Part shown: in pieces, positions 6,564 through 64,000 of the stretch | Layout: every line of letters starts with the position of its first letter | Position numbering within the stretch: position 1 is the stretch's first letter | Assembly: GCA_049322615.1 (NCBI GenBank) | Contig: JBMORX010000009.1 | Location: 57,120 to 121,119, forward strand | Length of the DNA: 64,000 bases | Source of the DNA: Patescibacteria group bacterium | GTDB taxonomy: Bacteria > Patescibacteriota > Microgenomatia > CAYGWK01 | Reading direction: 5' to 3' | Position numbers and translations under genes: made by a program | The notes under the pieces: generated by a model | What the model was told of the DNA's origin: nothing | What the model saw: only the letters and a program-made list of their open reading frames with translations | The model's database searches: none

Positions 6564-7852
6564 TCAGGTTTTCGACCTGTTCTTCGCAAATAACTGGCAG
6601 GATAATTTTCATTAGGCTTAAGATGAATCTTCAAAAATTTGCCATCTTTTCCTAGGCGAATCCGCCGGTATTCTTCTTGAGGATTTCGAATAGTAAACTT
6701 TTCAATTTTTTTCCAATCCGGGCGGATACCAAGACCTTTTCCTCGTATAGGTAGAAAATTTTTAGTCTGCGGATCGAAAAGAAATTTCTCTTTAATCAGA
6801 TGTTTCTCATCACGAAACCAATCTGTTGAGGGTTCCCAACCATCACCCGGTAGAGTAGTTGTTGCTAAAGTAGCGGCTGCTTGTTGGTCATAGGCCCGAC
6901 CGATAGCTGTAGGAAAAGTCCCCCCCACCATATTTTTAGTTTTTTCCTGAGTCATCGGAAGAATAGCTTTTTCAATCTCTTGGGCATGATAAAGCCCCCC
7001 CACTTTATGTATCTTAAAATTTAAAGAAAGATTAGCTTTTGTGCACTCAACTGCATTTTTTAAGGTGACAAATGATTCATCTGCCATTACCGGTGTTTCA
7101 TATCCGTATTGTCTTAGTGCTTCTTTGGCAAAAACAAGCCCTTCAATATTGCTCTCTTCTTTTGTGGGTTGTTCCATGAAAAGGAGAGAAGAAAGATTGA
7201 CCCCCATTTTTTTTAAAATCAAAACCAATTCTTTAAATTCTTCCGGTTCGTATCGAGCATTGAAATCAAGAACGAAAGGAATTTGTTTCTCACAAGATAA
7301 CAATGCTACAGCTTTAATTGTTGCAGTATCTTCCTCTTTTGTTTTACCAACTTTAGGTTTAGGAATAAAACCATGTTGAAATTTTCCTTCAACTTCAGCA
7401 ATTAGTAATGCTGTCTCGCTTTGAAAAGAAATACTGGCAAGCGCTTGCCCCCCCAGCCTTTTCTGTCCATACATTTCTAAAATTGACTTTTCATCCATTT
7501 GACCATAAAGGTCATCTAAGGCCATATTTAAAGCAGTGAAAGCAGCTGGAAATCGTTCAAGCAAAGCCCTTCTTAGAGCCTTATCAGTTAGTATACTTTC
7601 TCTTTCTTCAACATTTCTCCCCTCAATTTCTAGTCGTGATAAGGCCCAATATATATCCCAAGCGTCGTAGGTGGAGAAGGGGAAGTCAATACTGGCTTCG
7701 CCGATTCCCTCCATCATTCCAGATTCATCTAAGGCCTTGATTATGAACAATACCCGTGGTAGTTTTTCTAATGCCCCGAATCCTAAAGGGAATGGCCGTT
7801 CCAGATCAATTCCAAGAAGGTATGGTTTAGTTTCTAAAATTTCGTAGCGCAT
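6551..7852 (-). CDS. enolase-superfamily enzyme (mandelate racemase / muconate lactonizing / dipeptide epimerase-like)
   Basis: KPKVGK, LDFNARY, FMEQP, PVMADES and KIHKVGG blocks match MR/MLE metal-ligand regions; 13-nt overlap with the next gene. Confidence 0.75.
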   Translation of the reverse strand: MRYEILETKPYLLGIDLERPFPLGFGALEKLPRVLFIIKALDESGMMEGIGEASIDFPFSTYDAWDIYWALSRLEIEGRNVEERESILTDKALRRALLERFPAAFTALNMALDDLYGQMDEKSILEMYGQKRLGGQALASISFQSETALLIAEVEGKFQHGFIPKPKVGKTKEEDTATIKAVALLSCEKQIPFVLDFNARYEPEEFKELVLILKKMGVNLSSLLFMEQPTKEESNIEGLVFAKEALRQYGYETPVMADESFVTLKNAVECTKANLSLNFKIHKVGGLYHAQEIEKAILPMTQEKTKNMVGGTFPTAIGRAYDQQAAATLATTTLPGDGWEPSTDWFRDEKHLIKEKFLFDPQTKNFLPIRGKGLGIRPDWKKIEKFTIRNPQEEYRRIRLGKDGKFLKIHLKPNENYPASYLRRTGRKPDWNL

Positions 7853-44767: not shown

Positions 44768-44851
44768 TGGCGGAATCGGTATACGCGCAACACTTAAAAT
44801 GTTGTGGGTGTAAAATCACCCATGAGGGTTCGAGTCCCTCCTGGCCCACCA
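44761..44851 (+). tRNA. tRNA-Leu(TAA) with encoded CCA
   Basis: acceptor GGGCTAG/CTGGCCC, anticodon loop CTTAAAA, long variable arm, T loop TTCGAGT. Confidence 0.8.
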
Positions 44852-44852
44852 T

Positions 44853-44926
44853 CGGGGAGTAGCTCAGTTGGTTTAGAGTGCGCGCTTTGGGAGCGTGAGG
44901 CCGGCGGTTCGAATCCGCCCTCCCCG
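44853..44926 (+). tRNA. tRNA-Pro(TGG)
   Basis: acceptor CGGGGAG/CTCCCCG, anticodon loop TTTGGGA, T loop TTCGAAT. Confidence 0.8.
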
Positions 44927-44991
44927 ACCCTTCGGCTTCGCCTCAGGGCAAGCTGAAAAATGTTTACACCGAACCCGCTAAGGCGGGTGAG

Positions 44992-45204
44992 GTGCGGGTG
45001 TAGTTCAGTTAGTAGAACGTCTCCCTTCCAGCCCGAAAAATCGCCTTCGGTGATTAACGGGCTAGGCACGTTAATTTGTGCGGGAGTAGCTCAGTTGGGA
45101 GAGCGTCTCCCTTCCAAGGAGAAGGTCGCGAGTTCAAATCTCGTCTCCCGCTCACAAATTTTACGTGCCAAGGAGAAGGTCGTGGGAGCAAGGCCCATCA
45201 CCCG
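44992..45204 (+). pseudogene. decayed tRNA-Gly(TCC) split in its anticodon loop (5' half 44992-45028, 3' half 45166-45204) with an intact tRNA-Gly(TCC) embedded between the halves
   Basis: outer acceptor GCGGGTG/CACCCGC perfect and anticodon stems intact; outer T loop degenerate (AGCAAGG); CCA duplicated at both junctions; inner gene bounded by the inverted repeats GCACGTTAATTTGTG / CACAAATTTTACGTGC. Confidence 0.65.
45078..45150 (+). tRNA. tRNA-Gly(TCC)
   Basis: acceptor GCGGGAG/CTCCCGC, anticodon loop CTTCCAA, T loop TTCAAAT. Confidence 0.85.
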
Positions 45205-45232
45205 CTCAAGTTTACTCCGAACGAATGTGAGG

Positions 45233-45333
45233 AGCCCCTGTAGCTCAATGGATAAGCTGGCTTTTCAAGCCATCTTAATCCGCAAGGCGGATTAAGCGAG
45301 CTTGACCATTTCGCACAGTGGCTCGCGATGCTC
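45233..45333 (+). pseudogene. tRNA 5' fragment duplicating the first 25 nt of tRNA-Arg(TCT), followed by the hairpins TTAATCCGCAAGGCGGATTAA and GCGAGC..GCTCGC
   Basis: GCCCCTGTAGCTCAATGGATAAGC versus the intact GCCCCTGTAGCTCAATGGATAGAGC; anticodon region non-canonical. Confidence 0.55.
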
Positions 45334-45406
45334 GCCCCTGTAGCTCAATGGATAGAGCGGGTCGGTTCTAACGACTAGGTTGGGGGTTCGACTCCCTCCA
45401 GGGGCA
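45334..45406 (+). tRNA. tRNA-Arg(TCT)
   Basis: acceptor GCCCCTG/CAGGGGC, anticodon loop GTTCTAA, T loop TTCGACT. Confidence 0.8.
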
Positions 45407-45422
45407 CCCTTCGATAAACCAT

Positions 45423-45498
45423 GGTGGTGTTAGCTCAAAGGTAGAGCGTCGGCCTGTGGAGCCGAATGTTGCGGGTTCGAATCCCGTACACCACCCCA
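45423..45498 (+). tRNA. tRNA-His(GTG) with encoded G-1 and CCA
   Basis: G-1 pairs with C73; acceptor GTGGTGT/ACACCAC; anticodon loop CTGTGGA. Confidence 0.85.
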
Positions 45499-54906: not shown

Positions 54907-57003
54907 TTAACTAGCCGTAATTTCCTTAATCTTGTCCCTAATTTTGGCTGCGAGTTCAAAGTTTAGATCGCGAGCTGCTTCTTTCATTTCTTTGGTTAAG
55001 CGCTTGACTAGCCTTAGGCGATCTTCAGGTGTCAGTTGTCCAGAATCAAGATGTTTAAGTTCTGACAAAGCAGATTGATAACTTCTGATTCCGAAAATAA
55101 ATGGGTCTATTCTTTCTTCGCGGACTACCAGTTTTTCCCTAATTGGCTTTTGAATACTCCGAGGAGTAATTTTGTGTTTTTTATTGTATTCAAGTTGAAT
55201 GTTTCTTCTCCGGGAAACTTCAGCGATTGCCCGCTTCATTGAACCAGTCAGATTATCAGCATACATAATTACCTGTCCATTTATATGCCTAGCTGCCCGA
55301 CCCATGACCTGAATCAAAGAGGTTTCTGAGCGCAAAAACCCCTCTTTATCCGCATCTAAAATTGCCACCAAAGAAACTTCGGGCAAATCAAGTCCTTCTC
55401 GTAAAAGATTAATCCCCACCACCACATCATATTTTCCCAAACGCAAATCATCTAAAATATCAGACCGGTCAAGAGTCTGGATCTCTGAATGAAGGTAATG
55501 AACTTTTACCCCTTTTTCCTGAAGATATAAAGCCAAATCTTCAGCCATTCTTTTAGTTAAAGTCGTTACCAGAACCCTTTCTCTCGCTTTGACCCTTTTG
55601 TCTATTTCTAAAATCAAGTTATCAATCTGTCCCTCAGTTTTCTTAATGGAAATCTCTGGGTCGGGAATTCCAGTTGGGCGAATAAGTTGTTCCACGGGCT
55701 TGCCAGTTTTTTCAAGTTCCCAGTCTGCTGGGGTGGCTGAAGTATAAATTGTTTGGGGAATCCTCCTTAAAAATTCTGCAAATTTCAGAGGTCGGTTATC
55801 TAAAGCCGCCGGCAGTCTAAACCCAAATTTGACCAAGGTTTCCTTTCTTGAGCGGTCGCCATTATACATCCCTTCAATTTGGGGAATGCTCATGTGCGAC
55901 TCGTCAATAAATAAAAGCCAATTATTCTGGTAAGGCTCTTTAAAATAATCAAGTAAAGTGTAGGGTGGCTCGCCAGGTTTTCGACCATCAAAATAGCGAG
56001 AATAATTTTCAACCCCATTGACATATCCAGTTTCTTCAATCATCTCCAAATCATAATTCACTCTTTGTTCTAAGCGGTGAGCCTCAAGTATCTTTCCTTG
56101 GGAACGGAGTTCTCTAAGTCTTTCTTCCAGATCTTTCCTTATTTCCACAAAAACATCTGAAAGACTGGCTGGATCAGTCATATAGTGTTTGGCAGGATAG
56201 ATTAAGACAGAAGTGGGAAGGGCGAAGTGCCGTGCGTCGCCAGAGGCTACTCGCCGTTGCGTAGCCACGCTTTGGCGGAGCGCGGTGCCGGCGGCGCGAG
56301 AAGTGGGAAGAATTTTGCCATTTAGGGGATCTATTTTGGCGATTTTCGTAATCCTCTCTCCCTCCATTTCAATTCTGACAGCCACATCTTCGTAGGCTGG
56401 GAAAATGTCAATCGTGTCTCCTCTGACTCGGAAAGTGCCTCGGTGAAAACCATAGTCTGCCCGATCGTATTGAAGACGGGTAAGCCTTCTTAATATTTCC
56501 TGGCGATCAATTTTTTGTCCAATTTCTACTTCTAAAACAAAATGTCCATATTCTCTGGGCGAACCAAGGTTATAAATACAAGAAACTGAAGCAACAATGA
56601 TGGTATCTGGTCTGGTTAAAATATTGGTCGTAGACTCCAGTCTTAATTTGTCAATTAATTCATTTATTTCTGTTTCTTTTTCAATATAAGTGTCGGTTTG
56701 GGGAATATAAGCCTCGGGTTGATAATAATCATAATAAGAAACAAAGAAACAAACCGCGTTCTCGGGAAAGAAATCGCGAAATTCTTGATAAAGCTGGGCG
56801 GCTAGGGTTTTGTTATGAGAAATAACCAAAGTCGGTCGTTGCAGTTTGGCAATGACATTAGCCATGGTAAAAGTTTTTCCCGAACCAGTTACCCCAAGTA
56901 AAACTTGATGTTTTTCCCCAGCCCGAATTCCGGTCACCAATTTCTCAATCGCCTCCGGCTGGTCTCCGGTGGGTTTAAAAGTTGAATGGAGTTTAAATTC
57001 CAT
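54907..57003 (-). CDS. uvrB: excinuclease ABC subunit B carrying an in-frame ~34-aa insertion encoded by the GC-rich 74-nt core
   Basis: [10 protein letters not shown] Walker A, helicase motifs, C-terminal UvrB/UvrC interaction helix; insertion at 56210-56312. Confidence 0.9.
56210..56312. repeat. GC-rich 74-nt hairpin core flanked by GGGAAGT heptamers, in frame in uvrB
   Basis: core identical to 14250-14323; the frame of insertion differs from the pheT copy. Confidence 0.85.
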
Positions 57004-57031
57004 AGCGGGTTACATTATATCATCTTTTGAT

Positions 57032-57090
57032 TCCAGGACTCTGATTCCAGGACTATCCTGGAACAGGCACGAATCCAGGACTATCCTGGA
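57032..57090. repeat. three REP-A hairpin units (inverted orientation) in the divergent uvrB-lexA promoter region
   Basis: ccaggactctga / ttccaggactatcctggaa / tccaggactatcctgga. Confidence 0.8.
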
Positions 57091-57183
57091 TCACCCCCAG
57101 CTTTGCCAAGGCTTCGGCGAGGTCTGCGTCCCGATAAAAATCGGGACTTGACATTTGGGTTTTCTTCGTATTATGATTAAACC

Positions 57184-57798
57184 ATGCCAGTTACTCTTTA
57201 TCGTCGCCAAAAACAAATTTTAGATTTCTTGAGCCTTTATATTCAAAAACATGGCTATTCTCCAACTTTACAGCAAATTGCTGATGCTTTAGGGGTCCGC
57301 TCATTGGCGACAGTTCACGAACATTTAGCCGCCATGGTTAAAAAAGGAATAATCCATCGTTTTGAAGGGGCGGTCCGGGGAATTGAAATTGTTGACAAAA
57401 AACTTGGAGAGTTAACCGCCGGCGTTGAACTACCAATTTTAGGCTATATTGCCGCCGGCTCGCCCATTGAACCCTACACTGACCCAAATGCCACAATTTC
57501 TGTCGCTCCCGGACTTTTATCTGGTAAAAAACCTGCTTTTGTACTTCAGGTTAAAGGGGAGTCAATGATTGAAGATGGCATTCTGCCTGATGACTATGTC
57601 GTTGTTGAACAGCAAGAAGAGGTAAGAAATGGCGATATTGTTGTCGCTTTGCTTGAAAATGGCTTGGCGACTTTAAAACGCTATTTTCGTGAAGCCTCGC
57701 GAATTAGACTTGAACCAGCAAATTCAAAAATGTCGCCAATTTTTACCACTAAAGTTAAAATTCAAGGAAAAGTGGTGGGAGTAATTAGAAGATATTAA
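57184..57798 (+). CDS. lexA: LexA repressor (S24 peptidase)
   Basis: N-terminal winged HTH; catalytic GESM Ser and a downstream Lys region; 204 aa; divergent from uvrB. Confidence 0.85.
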   Translation: MPVTLYRRQKQILDFLSLYIQKHGYSPTLQQIADALGVRSLATVHEHLAAMVKKGIIHRFEGAVRGIEIVDKKLGELTAGVELPILGYIAAGSPIEPYTDPNATISVAPGLLSGKKPAFVLQVKGESMIEDGILPDDYVVVEQQEEVRNGDIVVALLENGLATLKRYFREASRIRLEPANSKMSPIFTTKVKIQGKVVGVIRRY

Positions 57799-59089
57799 TA
57801 ATCATCAACGTCGAGGCAAGTCCAACAAAGACAAAAGTCACCCAGGCAACCATTCTGTTTAATCTTGTGGTTTTAAAATTACCGACAACCCTTTGATCAT
57901 CCGCCAGTTTAATAATAATGGCAATTAAGGGAACGGCGATTACCCCATTGATGATTGCCGCATAATACAAAGCCTTGATTGGGTTTATCCCCAGCAGATT
58001 GATGATGGCGCCAACTAAAGTTGCTAAACCCAAAACAAGATAAAAAGCTTTTGCCTCACTTAATTTTTTACTCAATCCTTCTTTAAAGCCAAAAACCTCG
58101 GAAAAGGCATAAGCAACTCCTCCGGCTAAAATAGGGACAGATTGAAGACCAATGCCGATAATGCCAAAAGTGAAAAGAATAAAGGCAAAGTCACCGACTA
58201 AAGGTTTTAAAGCCAAAGCAGCCTGTTGGGGAGTCTCAATATCAGTGATGCCACTTGCATGTAAGGTTTGGGCGGTGGTTAAAACGATAAAAGCGGCGAC
58301 CAAATTAGAAAAAATCATCCCAATCATTGTATCTCGTCGCATATAAACAATTTCTTTTTTGGCGATGTGTGGTTTTCTTTCAAATTCCTTAATTTTTCCT
58401 TCCTCAATTTCTTCTTCGACCTCTTCTGCCGCCTGCCAGAAGAAAAGATAAGGAGAAATCGTTGTCCCGATAAAACCCACCATGGTCATGAGGTAGACCA
58501 GGGAGAAATCAATATGAGGAATCAGGGTATGCTTTAAGACTGAAAGCCAATCCTGTTTGATGATTACCGCGGTTGCCCCGTAAACCAAAAGCGTTAGCCC
58601 CATGAACTTAAGATAAGAAGAATATTTACGGTAAGAAACGAAGATCTCAAGCATAAGGCTAAACAGAGTTACCGCCGCTAACCAGAACAAAAATGGTAAT
58701 CCTAAAACCATCACCAGGCTTGCGGCCATAATTCCCAGGTCAGCGCTAATGTTTATGGTGTTGGCAACAATCAAAAGAACAACCGCAAAACCTAGTAATT
58801 GTTTAGAATAAAATTTCTTAATTACTCCTGCCAGACCCATTCCCGAGACCATGCCAATTCTTCCGCACATTTCCTGAACTGAAATCATCATCGGCACTAA
58901 AAAGAGTGACAGCCAGTTAAGTCGATATCCGAATCGGGCGCCGGCAATCGAATAGGTCGCCACCCCTGAAGGATCGTCGTCAGCCGCGCCAGTAATAAAC
59001 CCCGGTCCGACGGATTTAAGAAGTTCTTTTAATTTTTTGAACCTTGCGGTAAACATAAGAAGCAAAAAGGAAAATACCCCCAAGAACAA
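57785..59089 (-). CDS. mntH: NRAMP-family divalent metal transporter
   Basis: GPGFITGAADDDPSGVATYS motif; 11-12 TM segments. Confidence 0.7.
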   Translation of the reverse strand: MFLGVFSFLLLMFTARFKKLKELLKSVGPGFITGAADDDPSGVATYSIAGARFGYRLNWLSLFLVPMMISVQEMCGRIGMVSGMGLAGVIKKFYSKQLLGFAVVLLIVANTINISADLGIMAASLVMVLGLPFLFWLAAVTLFSLMLEIFVSYRKYSSYLKFMGLTLLVYGATAVIIKQDWLSVLKHTLIPHIDFSLVYLMTMVGFIGTTISPYLFFWQAAEEVEEEIEEGKIKEFERKPHIAKKEIVYMRRDTMIGMIFSNLVAAFIVLTTAQTLHASGITDIETPQQAALALKPLVGDFAFILFTFGIIGIGLQSVPILAGGVAYAFSEVFGFKEGLSKKLSEAKAFYLVLGLATLVGAIINLLGINPIKALYYAAIINGVIAVPLIAIIIKLADDQRVVGNFKTTRLNRMVAWVTFVFVGLASTLMIINIF

Positions 59090-59639
59090 TCAAAATCTCA
59101 AATTTCCGAAAGTAAACCTCTAAAATATTCCAATTCTGACCCAAAGCCACTCCCAATCGGGTAAGAAAAGCCGACCAAATTAAAGAACCGGTTAAGGTAT
59201 AAAGGGAAAACTTAATAACATTCATTTTGGCAATTCCCGCCGGCAAAGAGATAAAAGTCCTAACAATAGGTAAAAGACGAGAGAAAAAGGCAATTTTTCC
59301 TCCGTGAGCCCTAAACCACCGCTCTGCCTGGTCAACCTCCTCAAGGTTTATAAGCAGATATTTTCCATAAGACCTAACTGCCCTGCGGACAACTTTCTCT
59401 TGACCCCAAAAGCCTAAAGCATAGACAGCCAAAGACCCAACCAAGTTTCCCAAACCGCCAACTAAGACAACTGCCAGAAAATTCATCTTCCCCAAACCCA
59501 CCAAAAATCCAGCAAAAGGCATGGTCACTTCTGAAGGAATAGGAATTAAAGCCGATTCTAAAGTCATTAAAATAAAAATGGCTGGATAGCCGATGGTAGA
59601 GACAGAACTGGTAATCCAAGAGGCAATCTGTTCAATCAT
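59016..59639 (-). CDS. DedA/VTT-family membrane protein
   Basis: DedA core (GYPAIFILM...PIPSEVTMPFAGFLVG...RLLPIVRTFISLPAG). Confidence 0.7.
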   Translation of the reverse strand: MIEQIASWITSSVSTIGYPAIFILMTLESALIPIPSEVTMPFAGFLVGLGKMNFLAVVLVGGLGNLVGSLAVYALGFWGQEKVVRRAVRSYGKYLLINLEEVDQAERWFRAHGGKIAFFSRLLPIVRTFISLPAGIAKMNVIKFSLYTLTGSLIWSAFLTRLGVALGQNWNILEVYFRKFEILIVLGGIFLFASYVYRKVQKIKRTS

Positions 59640-59875
59640 TTTTCGACTTTAATCGCAGAGTCTGGACAAAAAATTTCACAAATCCCACAAAGATTACATT
59701 TTAGCGGGTCAACGCAAGGCACAGGGGTGCTATAGACACCTAAGTCTTTGCTAAAAATTAAGGCTTTAAAGGGACACTTTTCAAGACAAATTCCACAACC
59801 CTTACAAAGTCCTAAAAAGACCGTCCAGGAGCCTTTCTTAACTTTTGTTGTTTTCCCTCTGAAATTATTTTCCAT
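59636..59875 (-). CDS. porD: 4Fe-4S ferredoxin, delta subunit of 2-oxoacid:ferredoxin oxidoreductase
   Basis: two CxxCxxCxxxCP clusters; 79 aa; follows por gamma. Confidence 0.7.
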   Translation of the reverse strand: MENNFRGKTTKVKKGSWTVFLGLCKGCGICLEKCPFKALIFSKDLGVYSTPVPCVDPLKCNLCGICEIFCPDSAIKVEK

Positions 59876-59927
59876 CGCTATTTCGAGATTTATCGAGAAA
59901 CAAGCTTTGCTTATGTAGTAATGAAAT

Positions 59928-60422
59928 TTATCCCAATGCTTTTAAATTTATTTCTCGCAACTTTGGATCTTCTTTGAACTTTTCCGCCAGTTTCTCTTCG
60001 AGGGCACGCCTGACGCTTTCCTTATCGACTACCCCAGATTCTTCAATTATCTTTCCCAAAATAATTATATTCCAAACTTTAGCCGGCAACTTCACACCTC
60101 TAAGGTGTGCGGCTATTGACACCTCGGGAATTTTGTCCGAAACGACCGCTGGTCCTAAAATTACTTGAGTATTTTTACCAATATAGCCTTTTACCCGCTC
60201 AATTGCCCGGTCGCAAAAAATTGCTACCAAATCTCCCTTCTCAAACTTTGGATAGTCGCAATCACTAATTTTGACAAAAGCCAAGGAGACCCCTCCACGC
60301 TGCTCGACCCCAAAGTTTGGAATTATTGAGGCTTTTTTTTCTTCCAAAAAGGCTGAATAAGCCAAAATTTCTGCCGCCAGCTGAACTCCCTGACCTCCTT
60401 CTCCGGCAAATAAAATTTTCAT
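59928..60422 (-). CDS. porC: pyruvate/2-oxoacid:ferredoxin oxidoreductase gamma subunit
   Basis: MKILFAGEGGQGVQ N-terminus. Confidence 0.8.
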   Translation of the reverse strand: MKILFAGEGGQGVQLAAEILAYSAFLEEKKASIIPNFGVEQRGGVSLAFVKISDCDYPKFEKGDLVAIFCDRAIERVKGYIGKNTQVILGPAVVSDKIPEVSIAAHLRGVKLPAKVWNIIILGKIIEESGVVDKESVRRALEEKLAEKFKEDPKLREINLKALG

Positions 60423-61135
60423 TTTAGTTCTCCTTGAGGAAAGTATTTTTCCAGCTCTTTTACTCTTTCAATGGTTTGGGGAGCATTCGTTTTCCAATTT
60501 AAGGGACAGGCAGAGACAACTTCGACAAAAGAAAAATTACCTGCTCTTTGAGTTTCTAAAGCGGCTTTAAAGAAATTTTTTAATTCTCCAGGTTTTTCAC
60601 TGGAGGTTCTGGCAATATAAGCTTTCTCCCAGGAGAGATGCTGGAGCAGTTCTGGTCCCATAAAAGTTTTTCCCTCGATTTTTGGGTCTTTACCTGAGGG
60701 AGTTGAGTCAGTCACTTGTCCCGCAAGAGTGGTTGGGGCTAGCTGCCCACCGGTCATTCCATAATTGGTGTTATTAACCAAAATTATGGTGATTGGATTA
60801 TTCCGCAAACAGGCATGAATTAAATTCTGAAGCCCGATGGCATAACCTCCACCATCACCAATCAAACAAATAACATTTTTTTCAGGATCCGCCATCTTAA
60901 ACCCAACGGCGGTCGCCACTGTTCTTCCGTGGTGAGTCTGGGAGGTTGGTAAATCATAAAAATCCCAGGCGAGGAGATTGCAGCCAATATCAGTTAAAAA
61001 CACCGTGTTTTCCTGGATACCCAGCTCATCGACAACCAAACCCAGGTTTTTTAAGATAATTCCGTATCCGCACCCCGGACAAAACTTATGGGGTTTAGAG
61101 GAAACCTTGTAACATTTCGGGAAATTAGGCTCCAT
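60419..61135 (-). CDS. porB: pyruvate/2-oxoacid:ferredoxin oxidoreductase beta subunit (TPP-binding)
   Basis: GDGG...TPP-binding block; N-terminal Cys cluster. Confidence 0.8.
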   Translation of the reverse strand: MEPNFPKCYKVSSKPHKFCPGCGYGIILKNLGLVVDELGIQENTVFLTDIGCNLLAWDFYDLPTSQTHHGRTVATAVGFKMADPEKNVICLIGDGGGYAIGLQNLIHACLRNNPITIILVNNTNYGMTGGQLAPTTLAGQVTDSTPSGKDPKIEGKTFMGPELLQHLSWEKAYIARTSSEKPGELKNFFKAALETQRAGNFSFVEVVSACPLNWKTNAPQTIERVKELEKYFPQGELK

Positions 61136-62120
61136 ATATTTCTAAAATTTCCTCTGGGGTAAAACCCAAAGCAGGCTTACCAATACTTTCAATCTCTCCC
61201 TGCCAGCCTTGGAGTTTATCACGAACTAGTTTTGATAACTGTCCAAGCGAAGACTCGACAATGGTTATTTTTTTGACAGTTTTGCTAATCTTTTTAAGAC
61301 CTTCATCAGGGAAAGGCCAGAGGGTTTTCGGTCTAAAAAGAAAAACTCCGGCATCTTTGGCTGCTAAAGCCACTGTTCCATAGGCAATGATAATTTTTTC
61401 CGCTGGTTTACCACTGACTTCATATTCACAAATTTCATCTGCCATTTTTTGCCAGTCAGAAAAATTTCTCATATTAAGCTCATAAACTTCCTCTTCTAAG
61501 TTATAGCAATTCCTCATATTCGTGGTTAAAATCGGCTCAATTTTTTCATTTTTCATTTTTAATTTTTCATTGATGTTAACTTCCCCCTTCATCTTCCCCA
61601 AATATCCATCATAGAGAATAAAAGTCGGAAATCGATACTTCCAGGCATTGGCAAAGGTTTTAAGGGTCAAATCGTATAATTCTTGGAGAGACGATGGTGC
61701 GTAAACTAATCTTAATCCTTCGCCATTGCCACCGAAAGCGGTCAAATAAAGCTCTTGCTGGGAATAGATGACCTGTCCGGTTGAAGGACCACCCCGTTGA
61801 CCAATCAGACAAACTGTCGGTAGCCTCATCCCTTCTGCCATTGAGATTGCATCCTGCATCAAAACAGTTCCCGGACCAGCGGTGGCCGTAAAAGCCGGAA
61901 CTCCGGCTAAAACACTTCCGCAAACCCCAAATCCGGCTGCCATCTCATCTTCAGTCTGAAGATACTTTCTCTTATTTTTCTCGGCTAATCTAACCCAGGT
62001 GGAGAAGACTTCAGTTGTTGGTGTAATTGGATAGCCAAACATAATCTGGGCCCCGGCGTCAAACGCCGCCTGAGCCAAAACTTCATTTCCCATTAAAAAA
62101 GATCGCATGTTATAATTCAT
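61125..62120 (-). CDS. porA: pyruvate/2-oxoacid:ferredoxin oxidoreductase alpha subunit
   Basis: domain I/II blocks; 331 aa; first gene of the por operon. Confidence 0.8.
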   Translation of the reverse strand: MNYNMRSFLMGNEVLAQAAFDAGAQIMFGYPITPTTEVFSTWVRLAEKNKRKYLQTEDEMAAGFGVCGSVLAGVPAFTATAGPGTVLMQDAISMAEGMRLPTVCLIGQRGGPSTGQVIYSQQELYLTAFGGNGEGLRLVYAPSSLQELYDLTLKTFANAWKYRFPTFILYDGYLGKMKGEVNINEKLKMKNEKIEPILTTNMRNCYNLEEEVYELNMRNFSDWQKMADEICEYEVSGKPAEKIIIAYGTVALAAKDAGVFLFRPKTLWPFPDEGLKKISKTVKKITIVESSLGQLSKLVRDKLQGWQGEIESIGKPALGFTPEEILEIYGA

Positions 62121-62123
62121 TGT

Positions 62124-62822
62124 ATGGCTAAACTCTATCTTGTGTCAACCCCAATTGGAAATCTGGGAGATTTGACTCTTCGGGCAAAAAGAATTTTATC
62201 AGAAGTTGAAGTTATTGCTTGCGAAGATACCAGAAAAACTGGATTGCTCCTTCAAGCCTTGCGTAAGGAGAGGGCAAAACTGATTTCTTATTACGAAGAA
62301 AACGAATTAATAAGAATTCCAGAAATTATTAATCTTCTAAAACAAGGCAAAAATGTCGCTTTAGTTTCAAACGCCGGTACGCCCACTATCTCTGACCCAG
62401 GATATAAACTTGTTCGAGAATGCATAAACCAGAGTATTCAAGTCGAAGCGATTCCAGGCGCCTCAGCGATTCTCACCGCCTTAGTCTCTTCTGGTCTACC
62501 AACCGATAAATTTTTATTCTTGGGATATCTCCCCAAAAAAGCCGGCAAGCGCCAAAAACTCCTAAATGACCTGTATCACTGTACTAGTACAATAGTACAA
62601 ATGCAACCGACAATTATTCTTTTTGAATCTCCATACCGCTTACTTGAAACACTTCAAGACCTAAAAGAAATGTTTGGTGATATCAAAATCGTTATCTGTC
62701 GGGAATTAACAAAAATTCATGAAGAAATAAGAAGAGAAAAGATTTCCGATTCAATCAAACATTTTGAACAAGTCAAACCTAAAGGAGAATTTGTTATTCT
62801 TTTTAATATTCCTCTAAAGTAG
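62124..62822 (+). CDS. rsmI: 16S rRNA (cytidine1402-2'-O)-methyltransferase
   Basis: tetrapyrrole-methylase fold N-terminus [18 protein letters not shown]...ACEDTR. Confidence 0.85.
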
Positions 62823-64000
62823 AGACATCGCCGATTGGTAAACCCAATTCTTTTGCCTTCAGAAGTCTTCTGACAATTTTTCCTGAACGAGTTTTTGGGA
62901 GTTTGTCGATAAACTCAATTTCTCGCGGATAAGCATGACCAGCCAAATGGGTTTTGACATGCTCCTGTAATTTCTCAACTAGGGTTTTTGAGGGCCTCCA
63001 GGAAGGCTTTAAAGCCACAAAAGCCTTGATTATCTCTCCTCGAATTGGGTCTGGTTTACCAATTACTCCTGCTTCAGCCACGGCTGGATGCTCCAAGAGG
63101 CTTGATTCAACCTCAAACGGTCCAACTCGTTCACCTCCAGTTTTAATCACGTCGTCTGCTCTTCCCACAAACCAAAAATAGCCATCGCGATCTTTATAGG
63201 CTAAATCTCCGGTGATATACCAACCTCCTACGAAGTAGCTTTTGTATTTTGAAGGACGACGCCAGATAGTTTTCATCATTGATGGCCAGGGAGGTTTTAT
63301 CGCCAAATTCCCTACTCTGCCAGGGGAGAGCCTTTTGCCCTTATCATCAACTATTTCCGCGGAAATTCCAGGAATTGGTTTTCCCATTGAGCCTGGCTTA
63401 ATATCCATACAGGGATAGTTGGCGATTAAGATCCCACCAGTTTCTGTTTGCCACCAATTATCATGAAAGGGTAAACCAAAAGCTTTAAGTCCCCAATAAA
63501 CTGCCTCTGGATTTAAAGGCTCGCCTACTGAAGCCAAATGCCGAAGAGATGACAAATCATATTTTTTAACTAAACCAGAATCCGAAGCCGCCAACATTCT
63601 AATAGCAGTTGGCGCGGTGTACCAAACATTAACTTTATAGTCTTGGATTAGTTGATACCATTTTTCTGGACTAAATCTGCCTTCATAAACCAGGGAAGAA
63701 GCCCCATTTGACCAGGAGCCCAAGATTTCATAAGCAATTCCGGTAACCCAACCTGGATCAGCCGTGCAGTTATGAACAACCATATTGCTAAGAACATATG
63801 AACCAACTTCTGTTTCTAAATTGAAAACTTCTCCTTTATAAGGAATTTTTTTGATGGAGCGAATTGGTACCCAGATGAAATTTGGAGAAACATGGGCATG
63901 TTGATAAACGCTCGAGCGTTTATTTAAAAAAGGATGAGTTTTACCTAACACCTTGCTTAATTTCTTCAAAGATTTTCCACCGCTGGTTAAATAATAACAA
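62803..64000 (-). CDS. acs: acetyl-CoA synthetase (AMP-forming), partial with the 5' end beyond the window, containing the C-terminal part of an intein
   Basis: [11 protein letters not shown] and the C-terminal AMP-binding domain; ...[21 protein letters not shown]|CTADPGW shows intein blocks F/G with a +1 Cys; the frame stays open to the window edge. Confidence 0.7.

What the first reader, a model, noticed from the sequence alone, without database searches (positions are those of the whole stretch)
62803..64000. Intein inside acetyl-CoA synthetase at the right window edge
Upstream of the Acs block [10 protein letters not shown] the frame reads ...[21 protein letters not shown]|C. This is a textbook intein C-terminal block G (HN followed by a +1 Cys). 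About 65 residues of intein are visible before the window ends. The insertion point corresponds to the conserved FWCTADVGW region of Acs.
Basis: partly seen in the sequence, partly recalled or inferred. Interest (0 to 1): 0.5.

Follow-up and report, generated by a model that had tools for sequence, protein, structure and literature searches.

The report
Homing intein inside acetyl-CoA synthetase
The right edge of the window holds the tail of a genuine self-splicing protein element (an intein carrying a homing endonuclease) inside the acetyl-CoA synthetase gene of a tiny-genome CPR bacterium; it is an ordinary kind of element in a host enzyme for which I found no published report.

Summary
Confirmed. 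The gene is on the minus strand. Window 62806-63768 encodes the C-terminal 321 aa of an AMP-forming acetate--CoA ligase.

A public contig identical to the window over 7,284 bp continues past the edge and gives the whole 949-aa precursor:
- N-extein, 248 aa
- intein, 380 aa: Cys1, block B T63-P-T-H66, two LAGLIDADG motifs (E151, D246), His379-Asn380
- C-extein, 321 aa, starting at Cys+1

Syntenic orthologues up to 92% identical read ...DEDVYW|CTADPGW with no insertion. An AlphaFold model (pLDDT 89.5) matches solved endonuclease-containing inteins. Homologous inteins sit at the same site in Acs genes from Planctomycetes and Pacearchaeota assemblies, in both Acs subtypes.

Most likely it is a class 1 intein that splices out to give a 569-aa Acs and a free homing endonuclease. 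Splicing and cleavage are inferred, not shown. I found no paper describing an Acs intein, and databases label these proteins only "AMP-binding protein". Verdict: new member of a known kind, modest interest.

The parts
62803..62805 (-). Stop codon of the acs gene
   Evidence: It lies inside the 3' end of the convergent rsmI-like gene (62124-62822).
62806..63768 (-). C-extein: residues 629-949 of the 949-aa precursor. It is the C-terminal 321 aa of an AMP-forming acetate--CoA ligase and starts [10 protein letters not shown].
   Evidence: Pfam AMP-binding 1.4e-32 and AMP-binding_C 5.9e-26. NCBIfam NF003313 acetate--CoA ligase scores 822.6 bits against a cutoff of 729 on the full precursor. It is 95.6% identical to intein-less P0001. 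The spliced sequence matches PDB 9g79 Acs at E=1.5e-214.
63766..63768 (-). +1 Cys codon (TGC), the first C-extein residue and the nucleophile for trans-thioesterification
   Evidence: It aligns with the Cys of ...YW|CTAD in intein-less Acs. It follows HN in every family member.
63769..63786 (-). Intein block G: N375-M-V-V-H379-N380, i.e. the penultimate His and the terminal Asn that cyclises
   Evidence: H379 and N380 are invariant in 14 aligned inteins.
63787..63834 (-). Intein block F: G359[15 protein letters not shown]374. Asn363 is invariant where many inteins have Asp.
   Evidence: Alignments: V361, N363 and Y371 are invariant. Pfam Intein_splicing matches here.
63769..64000 (-). The visible intein tail: residues 304-380 of the 380-aa intein, running from the end of the endonuclease/linker region through blocks F and G. 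The rest of the intein (residues 1-303) and the 248-aa N-extein lie beyond the window edge, at window-equivalent 64001-64908 and 64909-65652 (L001 7285-8192 and 8193-8936).
   Evidence: L001 is identical to the window over 7,284 bp. The leave-one-out HMM gives E=1.9e-31.

Best explanation
This is a canonical class 1 intein of 380 aa with an embedded LAGLIDADG homing endonuclease. It sits in the short-type AMP-forming acetyl-CoA synthetase of a Microgenomates/Shapirobacteria-like CPR bacterium. The insertion lies between W248 and C249 (spliced numbering) of the conserved YW|[10 protein letters not shown] segment.

Shown here: the anatomy, the exact boundaries, the fold, the homologous family, and purifying selection on that family.

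Inferred mechanism:
1. The gene is translated as a 949-aa precursor in which the adenylation domain is interrupted.
2. Cys1, helped by block B Thr63/His66, makes a thioester at the N-junction.
3. Cys+1 takes over the N-extein.
4. Asn380, helped by His379, cyclises and releases the intein.
5. An S-to-N shift leaves an ordinary 569-aa Acs.

The freed intein would then act as a monomeric LAGLIDADG endonuclease, with E151 and D246 as the catalytic acids. It would cut intein-less acs alleles around ...GTCTATTGG|TGCACGGCTGATCC..., and repair from the intein-bearing copy would spread the element (homing).

The same intein family occurs at this site in two Acs subtypes and three distant lineages. That fits spread by homing and horizontal transfer at a site conserved enough to be recognised across hosts.
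For: Full ORF and blocks:
- C1, T63xxH66, LSGYYLAEG, KGFWRGDG and H379-N380|C are all present.
- Pfam finds LAGLIDADG_3 at 4.2e-12 and Intein_splicing at 1.5e-7, nested in AMP-binding.
- The intein alone hits NCBIfam models of intein-containing archaeal IF-2, PolII DP2, Tes and RpoA''. It also hits PDB PI-PkoII (1.6e-9) and the MJ0781 KlbA intein.

Fold:
- The AlphaFold2 model has pLDDT 89.5 and pTM 0.88.
- Top Foldseek PDB hits are the TliVMA intein 7qsu (E=2.6e-21, TM 0.68/0.71), PI-PkoII, the PhoVMA intein, PI-SceI and PI-PfuI. The endonuclease core matches I-DmoI.

Precise presence/absence:
- Syntenic orthologues have an uninterrupted 569-aa Acs reading VYW|CTADPGW. The shared gene order is enolase-iPGM-Acs-rsmI-OFOR.
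- The spliced extein is 91.7% identical to P0001, without gaps.

Family:
- 14 loci were recovered, 13 of them independent contigs (L011 is the same contig as L007), plus P0150 and P0256. All have a homologous intein at the same site.
- The L006 intein is 59-66% identical to inteins hosted in short-type Acs, while its C-extein is only 41-44% identical to theirs.

Selection:
- dN/dS is 0.06 (L004/L015) and 0.13 (L007/L014). The endonuclease region has pN/pS of 0.14-0.26.

The class 1 mechanism and the roles of the residues are as reviewed in PMC10663303.
Against: - No splicing or cleavage was measured; activity is inferred from conserved residues and selection.
- The Pfam Intein_splicing score (31.7 bits) is below the gathering cutoff of 35.8. 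The model is split by the endonuclease insertion.
- Block F has an invariant Asn363 where many class 1 inteins have an Asp that assists step 1.
- About 80% of the intein (residues 1-303) comes from a separate assembly (L001), not from the window. I take it as the same genome because 7284/7284 bases are identical.
- No intein-free allele from the same species was found. The nearest empty site is 84.6% identical at the DNA level, so recent homing is not shown.
Confidence: 0.93

Rival explanations
1. The intein still splices, but its endonuclease is no longer active. It would be inherited vertically and no longer mobile in this lineage.
For: Intein GC (0.384) is like the host's (0.39-0.44), so the insertion is not recent. 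No intein-free allele of the same species was seen; the closest empty site is 84.6% identical at the DNA level. One family member (L006) has lost the block C Glu, reading AGGS. This shows that endonuclease decay does occur in the family.
Against: Both catalytic acids are kept in the window's intein: E151 in ...LAEGS and D246 in ...RGDGD. The endonuclease region is under purifying selection in the family, with pN/pS 0.14-0.26. The intein is present at the same site in two Acs paralogue types and three phyla, which argues for mobility, at least in the past.
Confidence: 0.25
2. The intein is dead and cannot splice, so acs is in effect a pseudogene or makes an inactive 949-aa protein.
For: Block F Asn363 replaces the commonly conserved Asp. 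No experimental evidence of splicing exists.
Against: All four essential positions are intact: Cys1, block B His, the terminal Asn and the +1 Cys. The ORF is uninterrupted. The exteins remain 87-96% identical to functional-looking orthologues, with all Acs motifs present. Asn363 is invariant across the whole clade, including relatives in other host proteins, so it is a clade feature under selection rather than a lesion. dN/dS is far below 1.
Confidence: 0.04
3. It is a non-splicing inserted or fused domain, or a bacterial intein-like/Hint domain that only cleaves.
For: Only the C-terminal 77 residues are inside the window, so from the window alone this could not be excluded.
Against: The upstream sequence has Cys1 and TxxH. 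The boundaries match the empty site to the residue. The insertion is in a highly conserved catalytic segment, HN is followed by a nucleophile in every member, and the fold matches true inteins. BIL domains typically sit in variable regions and lack a conserved +1 nucleophile (my own knowledge).
Confidence: 0.02
4. It is an assembly chimera or artefact at the contig or window edge.
For: The feature touches the window end, and the extension comes from another assembly.
Against: The overlap with L001 is 7284/7284 identical and the gene is a single ORF. Thirteen independent contigs from other assemblies show the same architecture.
Confidence: 0.01

Closest known systems
Endonuclease-containing archaeal and yeast inteins with solved structures: TliVMA (7qsu/7qss), PhoVMA (7qst), PI-PkoII (2cw7), PI-SceI (1vde), PI-PfuI (1dq3)
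   Same: Same two-part architecture: a HINT splicing domain split by a two-motif LAGLIDADG endonuclease. They share Cys1, block B TxxH and a C-terminal HN with a +1 nucleophile. Foldseek gives E down to 2.6e-21 with TM 0.6-0.7. PI-PkoII is also found by sequence at 1.6e-9.
   Different: Only 11-18% sequence identity. The host is a metabolic adenylate-forming enzyme in a CPR bacterium, not a V-ATPase or a DNA polymerase. Block F has Asn instead of Asp. At 380 aa it is smaller than PI-SceI or PI-PkoII, which are 429-537 residues in the solved chains.
Unannotated Acs-hosted inteins in public MAGs and metagenomes: Planctomycetes L002-L006, L008-L010, L012, L013, L015; Pacearchaeota L007/L011 (MBM3234235.1, named only 'AMP-binding protein') and L014; P0150 and P0256
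   Same: Same insertion site (W|CTADxxW). Same length (380-385 aa in the 11 complete ones aligned). The same blocks are conserved: CVPP.T, TPxH, GYY.AEGS, KGFWRGDG, VHN. Identity to the window's intein is 49-52% (Planctomycetes) and 36-39% (Pacearchaeota).
   Different: Different phyla and even a different domain. Some sit in the long AcsA subtype rather than the short one. The window's copy is the only CPR member found and the most divergent bacterial one.
Same intein clade in other host proteins: TrxR-like CAT|CDG (P0121, P0153, P0154 and others), OFOR-beta WCPG|CG (P0122), ferredoxin CxxCxx|C (P0123)
   Same: 30-41% identity over the full intein. They share the C[VL]PP start, the invariant block F Asn, and an HN|C end.
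   Different: Different host genes and insertion sites, so these are not alleles of the Acs intein.
Surveyed intein hosts (Novikova et al. 2016, PMC4760082)
   Same: The insertion is in a conserved part of a nucleotide-binding enzyme, which fits the general bias toward conserved and ATP-binding sites reported there.
   Different: That survey found 61.5% of bacterial intein hosts in replication/repair and 21.7% in nucleotide metabolism. Its main text does not mention acetyl-CoA synthetase, and its supplementary tables were not available.

Membership tests
Class 1 intein (HINT splicing domain) | Cys/Ser/Thr at intein position 1, directly after the N-extein | tested here: met
   ...DEDVYW|C1-VPPETIVIA in L001, outside the window but on a contig identical over 7,284 bp. 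C1 is conserved in all Acs members.
Class 1 intein (HINT splicing domain) | Block B TxxH motif | tested here: met
   L-T63-P-T-H66. T63 and H66 are invariant in alignment A2.
Class 1 intein (HINT splicing domain) | C-terminal (His-)Asn followed by a +1 Cys/Ser/Thr | tested here: met
   VVH379-N380|C, at window 63766-63774.
Class 1 intein (HINT splicing domain) | In-frame insertion whose removal restores a contiguous conserved host protein | tested here: met
   The spliced sequence is 569 aa and aligns without gaps to P0001/P0002 (91.7% and 85.1% identity). The empty site reads VYW|CTADPGW.
Class 1 intein (HINT splicing domain) | HINT fold | tested here: met
   AF2 model pLDDT 89.5; the best PDB matches are all inteins.
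Class 1 intein (HINT splicing domain) | Block F Asp. This residue is highly conserved and assists step 1, but it is not a defining feature. | tested here: not met
   Asn363 (V-F-N-L-E-T) is invariant across the clade. The role of the Asp is described in PMC10663303. My assignment of this position rests on a block-pattern alignment, not on a structure.
Class 1 intein (HINT splicing domain) | Pfam Intein_splicing score above the gathering threshold | tested here: not met
   31.7 bits against a cutoff of 35.8, although E=1.5e-7. The model is interrupted by the endonuclease domain. This is a scoring criterion, not a biological feature.
Class 1 intein (HINT splicing domain) | Protein splicing actually occurs | not testable with these tools
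   Needs expression or mass spectrometry.
LAGLIDADG homing endonuclease (two-motif, monomeric) | Two LAGLIDADG motifs, each with a catalytic acidic residue | tested here: met
   LSGYYLAE151G and LKGFWRGD246G. Pfam LAGLIDADG_3 at 4.2e-12, above its cutoff. They align with the PI-PkoII motifs.
LAGLIDADG homing endonuclease (two-motif, monomeric) | LAGLIDADG alpha-beta fold | tested here: met
   The model's central domain matches I-DmoI and I-Tsp061I (target-normalised TM 0.58-0.70, E about 1e-5).
LAGLIDADG homing endonuclease (two-motif, monomeric) | Site-specific cleavage of the intein-less allele | not testable with these tools
   The candidate site is known from empty alleles, but no assay was possible.
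AMP-forming acetate--CoA ligase (host) | Scores above the curated equivalog cutoff | tested here: met
   NF003313 scores 822.6 bits against a cutoff of 729 even with the intein present. The spliced form matches PDB 9g79 Acs at 1.5e-214.

The most novel reading that the evidence does not exclude
The Acs intein is kept as a conditional switch rather than as a purely selfish element. With Cys1 and Cys+1 at the junctions, splicing could be gated by redox state. Because the insertion splits the acetate/adenylate pocket segment, it could also be gated by substrate. Either way it would set the amount of active Acs after translation in organisms with minimal regulation (CPR, DPANN). The clade's habit of sitting directly before functional cysteines (TrxR CAT|C, OFOR-beta CPG|C, ferredoxin Cx2Cx2|C) would then be meaningful and not just a source of +1 nucleophiles.
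Probability: 0.08. Interest if true: 0.6.

Novelty: new member of a known kind. Interest (0 to 1): 0.3.

Why it matters
- It adds a central carbon-metabolism enzyme (AMP-forming Acs) and a CPR bacterium to the list of intein hosts. That list is dominated by replication, repair and nucleotide-metabolism proteins (PMC4760082).
- The small family found here is a compact natural case of one intein allele crossing large distances. It occurs in CPR bacteria, Planctomycetes and DPANN archaea, and in both the short and long Acs subtypes. It could be used to study how far homing reaches when the target site is strongly conserved.
- For annotation, these roughly 950-1030-aa "AMP-binding proteins" should be labelled intein-containing acetate--CoA ligases.
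- The endonuclease is a candidate new LAGLIDADG specificity.
- None of this changes how inteins are understood.

Tried and rejected
- Homology search with the 398-aa window fragment. The 120 best hits are all intein-less Acs of 370-589 aa, so it gave the empty-site comparison but no intein-bearing relative.
- Word-indexed search with the full intein. It returned only 6 hits, none in Acs. The Acs-hosted relatives are in the collection, but several of their clusters are represented by short fragments (e.g. 53 aa). Even the query's own protein, P0127, was not returned. So this negative was misleading and I dropped it.
- What worked instead: a degenerate DNA pattern for the junction HN|CTADxGW[VI]TG scanned over genome and metagenome contigs. 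It is only a lower bound. P0150 (WITS) and P0256 (ADIAW) have the intein but do not fit the pattern.
- Literature searches: intein with acetyl-CoA synthetase, acetyl-coenzyme A synthetase, AMP-forming, acyl-CoA synthetase, Patescibacteria, Candidate Phyla Radiation and Planctomycetes. None of the listed papers is, by its title or abstract, about a native Acs intein; I did not open most of them. The Novikova 2016 supplement is not held, so a table entry there cannot be excluded.
I re-ran it without them.
- Search for further inteins of this family, or a second acs copy, in the window: none.
- Co-conversion tract around the insertion site. The differences per 90 nt against L016 and L017 show no clear pattern, and the sequences are too diverged to say more.
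- dN/dS for most pairs. Synonymous sites are saturated, so only L004/L015 and L007/L014 gave usable dS.

Full report
**1. What is in the window**

The feature is on the minus strand. window:62803-63999:- is one open frame of 398 codons plus a stop. Its first 77 residues are CYYLTSGG...[21 protein letters not shown]. From Cys78 onward it reads [14 protein letters not shown]... to ...STLEEY*.

- Pfam places AMP-binding on residues 77-246 (1.4e-32) and AMP-binding_C on 296-374 (5.9e-26).
- Pfam also gives a weak Intein_splicing match on residues 31-77, aligned to the very end of the model (E=0.0039).
- In window coordinates the C-extein is 62806-63768, the +1 Cys codon is 63766-63768, His-Asn is 63769-63774, and the intein tail is 63769-63999.
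The only correction is that 77 residues are visible, not about 65.

**2. Homology to Acs begins exactly at the Cys**

The 120 best database relatives are Acs proteins of 370-589 aa (median 568). They come from Candidatus Shapirobacteria, Microgenomates and other Patescibacteria, and none carries an insertion. In the alignment they read ...WVLDLRDEDVYW|[10 protein letters not shown]..., and identity with the window starts at that Cys.

**3. The missing part of the gene**

I looked up the neighbouring rsmI-like protein (62124-62822, plus strand) by exact sequence. This returned a 13.5-kb Logan contig, L001. L001 is identical to window 56717-64000 at 7284 of 7284 positions and continues 6.2 kb past the window edge.

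There the gene is a single 949-codon ORF, made of:
- N-extein, residues 1-248, ending ...DEDVYW
- intein, residues 249-628 (380 aa)
- C-extein, residues 629-949

The intein begins C1-VPPETIVIA. It has block B L-T63-P-T-H66, LAGLIDADG motifs LSGYYLAE151GS and LLKGFWRGD246GDV, block F EVFN363[11 protein letters not shown], and block G NMVVH379N380.

- On the full protein Pfam reports AMP-binding (1.5e-73, two stretches), LAGLIDADG_3 (4.2e-12), Intein_splicing (1.5e-7; 31.7 bits, just under the 35.8 cutoff) and AMP-binding_C.
- NCBIfam still names the host acetate--CoA ligase (NF003313, 822.6 bits against a cutoff of 729).
- The intein alone hits NCBIfam models of intein-containing archaeal IF-2, PolII DP2, Tes and RpoA''.
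- By sequence it matches solved PI-PkoII (1.6e-9) and the MJ0781 KlbA intein.

**4. Fold**

I ran AlphaFold2 on the intein with a 12-row alignment. The model has mean pLDDT 89.5 and pTM 0.88.

- Foldseek against the PDB returns only endonuclease-containing inteins at the top: TliVMA 7qsu (E=2.6e-21, TM 0.68/0.71), 7qss, PI-PkoII 2cw7, PhoVMA 7qst, PI-SceI and PI-PfuI.
- Next come free-standing LAGLIDADG enzymes such as I-DmoI, which match the central domain.

**5. Insertion site**

The spliced 569-aa sequence matches PDB 9g79 Acs at 1.5e-214. Against Salmonella Acs (1pg3/1pg4) the site falls between W302 and C303 (chain index) of ...GDIYW|CTADVGWVTGHSY.

That is seven residues before W309-V310-T311. 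From my own memory of the Gulick/Reger structural papers, V310 and T311 line the acetate pocket; I did not check this here. Either way, the intein sits in a strongly conserved catalytic segment, as inteins usually do.

**6. Presence/absence at an orthologous locus**

Contigs carrying the closest intein-less Acs share the window's gene order: enolase, iPGM, Acs, convergent rsmI-like gene, four OFOR subunits, VTT. These are P0001 on L016, and P0002 on L017-L019, which include Shapirobacteria GCA_002793695.1.

- The spliced gene and the empty genes are both 1710 nt.
- They are 84.6% and 77.8% identical at the DNA level, and 91.7% and 85.1% identical at the protein level.
- The empty site reads GATGT(T/C)TATTGG|TG(T/C)AC(A/G)GCTGA(T/C)CC.
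- No intein-free allele from the same species was found, and intein GC (0.384) is host-like. The insertion is therefore not recent.

**7. A family of Acs inteins**

I scanned for the junction HN|CTADxGW[VI]TG as a degenerate DNA pattern. This found 6 loci among GTDB species genomes and 8 in JGI metagenomes (L011 is the same contig as L007). Every one is an Acs gene with a homologous intein at this site; the complete copies are 380-385 aa.

| Host group | Loci | Acs type |
|---|---|---|
| Planctomycetes | L002-L005, L008-L010, L013, L015 | short |
| Planctomycetia | L006, L012 | long AcsA |
| Pacearchaeota (DPANN archaea) | L007/L011, L014 | long AcsA |

- The window's intein is 49-52% identical to the planctomycete ones and 36-39% identical to the archaeal ones.
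- C1, T63, H66, G146-Y147, R244-G245, G247, H379 and N380 are invariant; E151 and D246 are conserved in at least 90% of the sequences.
- An HMM built without the window's sequence hits the 77-aa window fragment at E=1.9e-31.
- The L006 intein is 59-66% identical to inteins hosted in short-type Acs, although its C-extein is only 41-44% identical to theirs. This points to movement of the intein between paralogous Acs types.
- dN/dS is 0.06 (L004/L015) and 0.13 (L007/L014). The endonuclease region is also constrained, with pN/pS of 0.14-0.26.
- An exhaustive HMMER scan of 1.84 billion representative proteins found 275 relatives at E<=1e-30.
- Among the best 150 hits of that scan, only P0127 (this protein), P0150 and P0256 are hosted in Acs.
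- Many of the other top hits sit in thioredoxin-reductase-like CAT|CDG sites.

**8. Mechanism and rivals**

The most likely reading is a standard class 1 intein, following the mechanism reviewed in PMC10663303:
1. N-to-S shift at Cys1, assisted by block B Thr/His.
2. Trans-thioesterification to Cys+1.
3. Asn380 cyclisation assisted by His379, followed by an S-to-N shift.

This would yield a 569-aa Acs and a free LAGLIDADG endonuclease able to home into empty acs alleles. The anatomy, boundaries, fold, family and selection are shown. Splicing and cleavage are inferred.

The rivals fare as follows:
- A non-splicing fused domain, a dead intein or pseudogene, and an assembly artefact are each contradicted by several results.
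- A splicing-competent intein with a decayed endonuclease remains plausible for this lineage (about 0.25).
- One deviation from the textbook pattern is an invariant Asn at the block F position where many inteins have Asp.

**9. Novelty**

The full-text searches returned no paper that, by its title or abstract, is about a native intein in acetyl-CoA synthetase, or about inteins in CPR bacteria generally; I did not open most of the listed papers. The main text of the large survey PMC4760082 does not mention Acs, and its supplement was unavailable.

The proteins themselves are in public collections. The only source names are generic: "AMP-binding protein [Candidatus Pacearchaeota archaeon]" (MBM3234235.1) and "acetyl-CoA synthetase" on a fragment.

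I file it as a new member of a known kind.

Noticed in passing
window 62803-62822: The acs gene (minus strand) and the rsmI-like TP_methylase gene (62124-62822, plus strand) converge and overlap by 20 bp at their 3' ends. The same overlap is seen in the intein-less orthologous loci (for example L016 3411-3430).
   Followed up: partly
window 59928-62120 and L001 8933-13512: Acs sits between a four-subunit 2-oxoacid:ferredoxin oxidoreductase operon (gamma 59928-60422, beta 60419-61135, alpha 61125-62120) and the iPGM/enolase genes. This order is conserved in Shapirobacteria relatives. It forms a compact pyruvate to acetyl-CoA to acetate module in a reduced genome.
   Followed up: partly
window 43539-45498: There is a cluster of 11 tRNA genes (Leu x3, Val, Phe, Gly x2, Pro, Arg, His). 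The window has 14 tRNAs in all and no other Rfam family above threshold.
   Followed up: no
P0048, P0054, P0057, P0062, P0064, P0076, P0087, P0094, P0097, P0098, P0120 (relatives of window 63766-63768): In 11 of the 120 closest intein-less Acs, the residue matching the +1 Cys is P, V, A or S (VYW[PVAS]TADPGW). The Cys is therefore not essential to Acs. The P/V/A alleles could not support splicing if invaded, which would make them natural intein-proof alleles.
   Followed up: partly
P0121, P0122, P0123, and P0152-P0176 among the hits: The nearest non-Acs relatives of this intein sit directly before functional cysteines. Examples are thioredoxin-reductase-like ...CAT|C-DG, Micrarchaeota OFOR-beta WCPG|CG, and a ferredoxin CxxCxx|C...CP motif. 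TrxR-like hosts are frequent among the top hits.
   Followed up: partly
L006 3865-5004: The Planctomycetia long-type AcsA intein reads GYYLAGGS in LAGLIDADG motif 1. The catalytic Glu is replaced by Gly, which suggests endonuclease decay in that copy.
   Followed up: no
window 63823-63825 (Asn363 of the intein): The block F position that is usually Asp is an invariant Asn across this whole intein clade, including relatives in other host proteins.
   Followed up: partly
clusters of P0128, P0134, P0136, P0138: Several full-length intein-containing Acs proteins are filed in 90% clusters whose representative is a short fragment (53-304 aa). This probably explains why the representative-based homology search missed them. 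It is a technical trap for anyone taking a census of inteins this way.
   Followed up: partly
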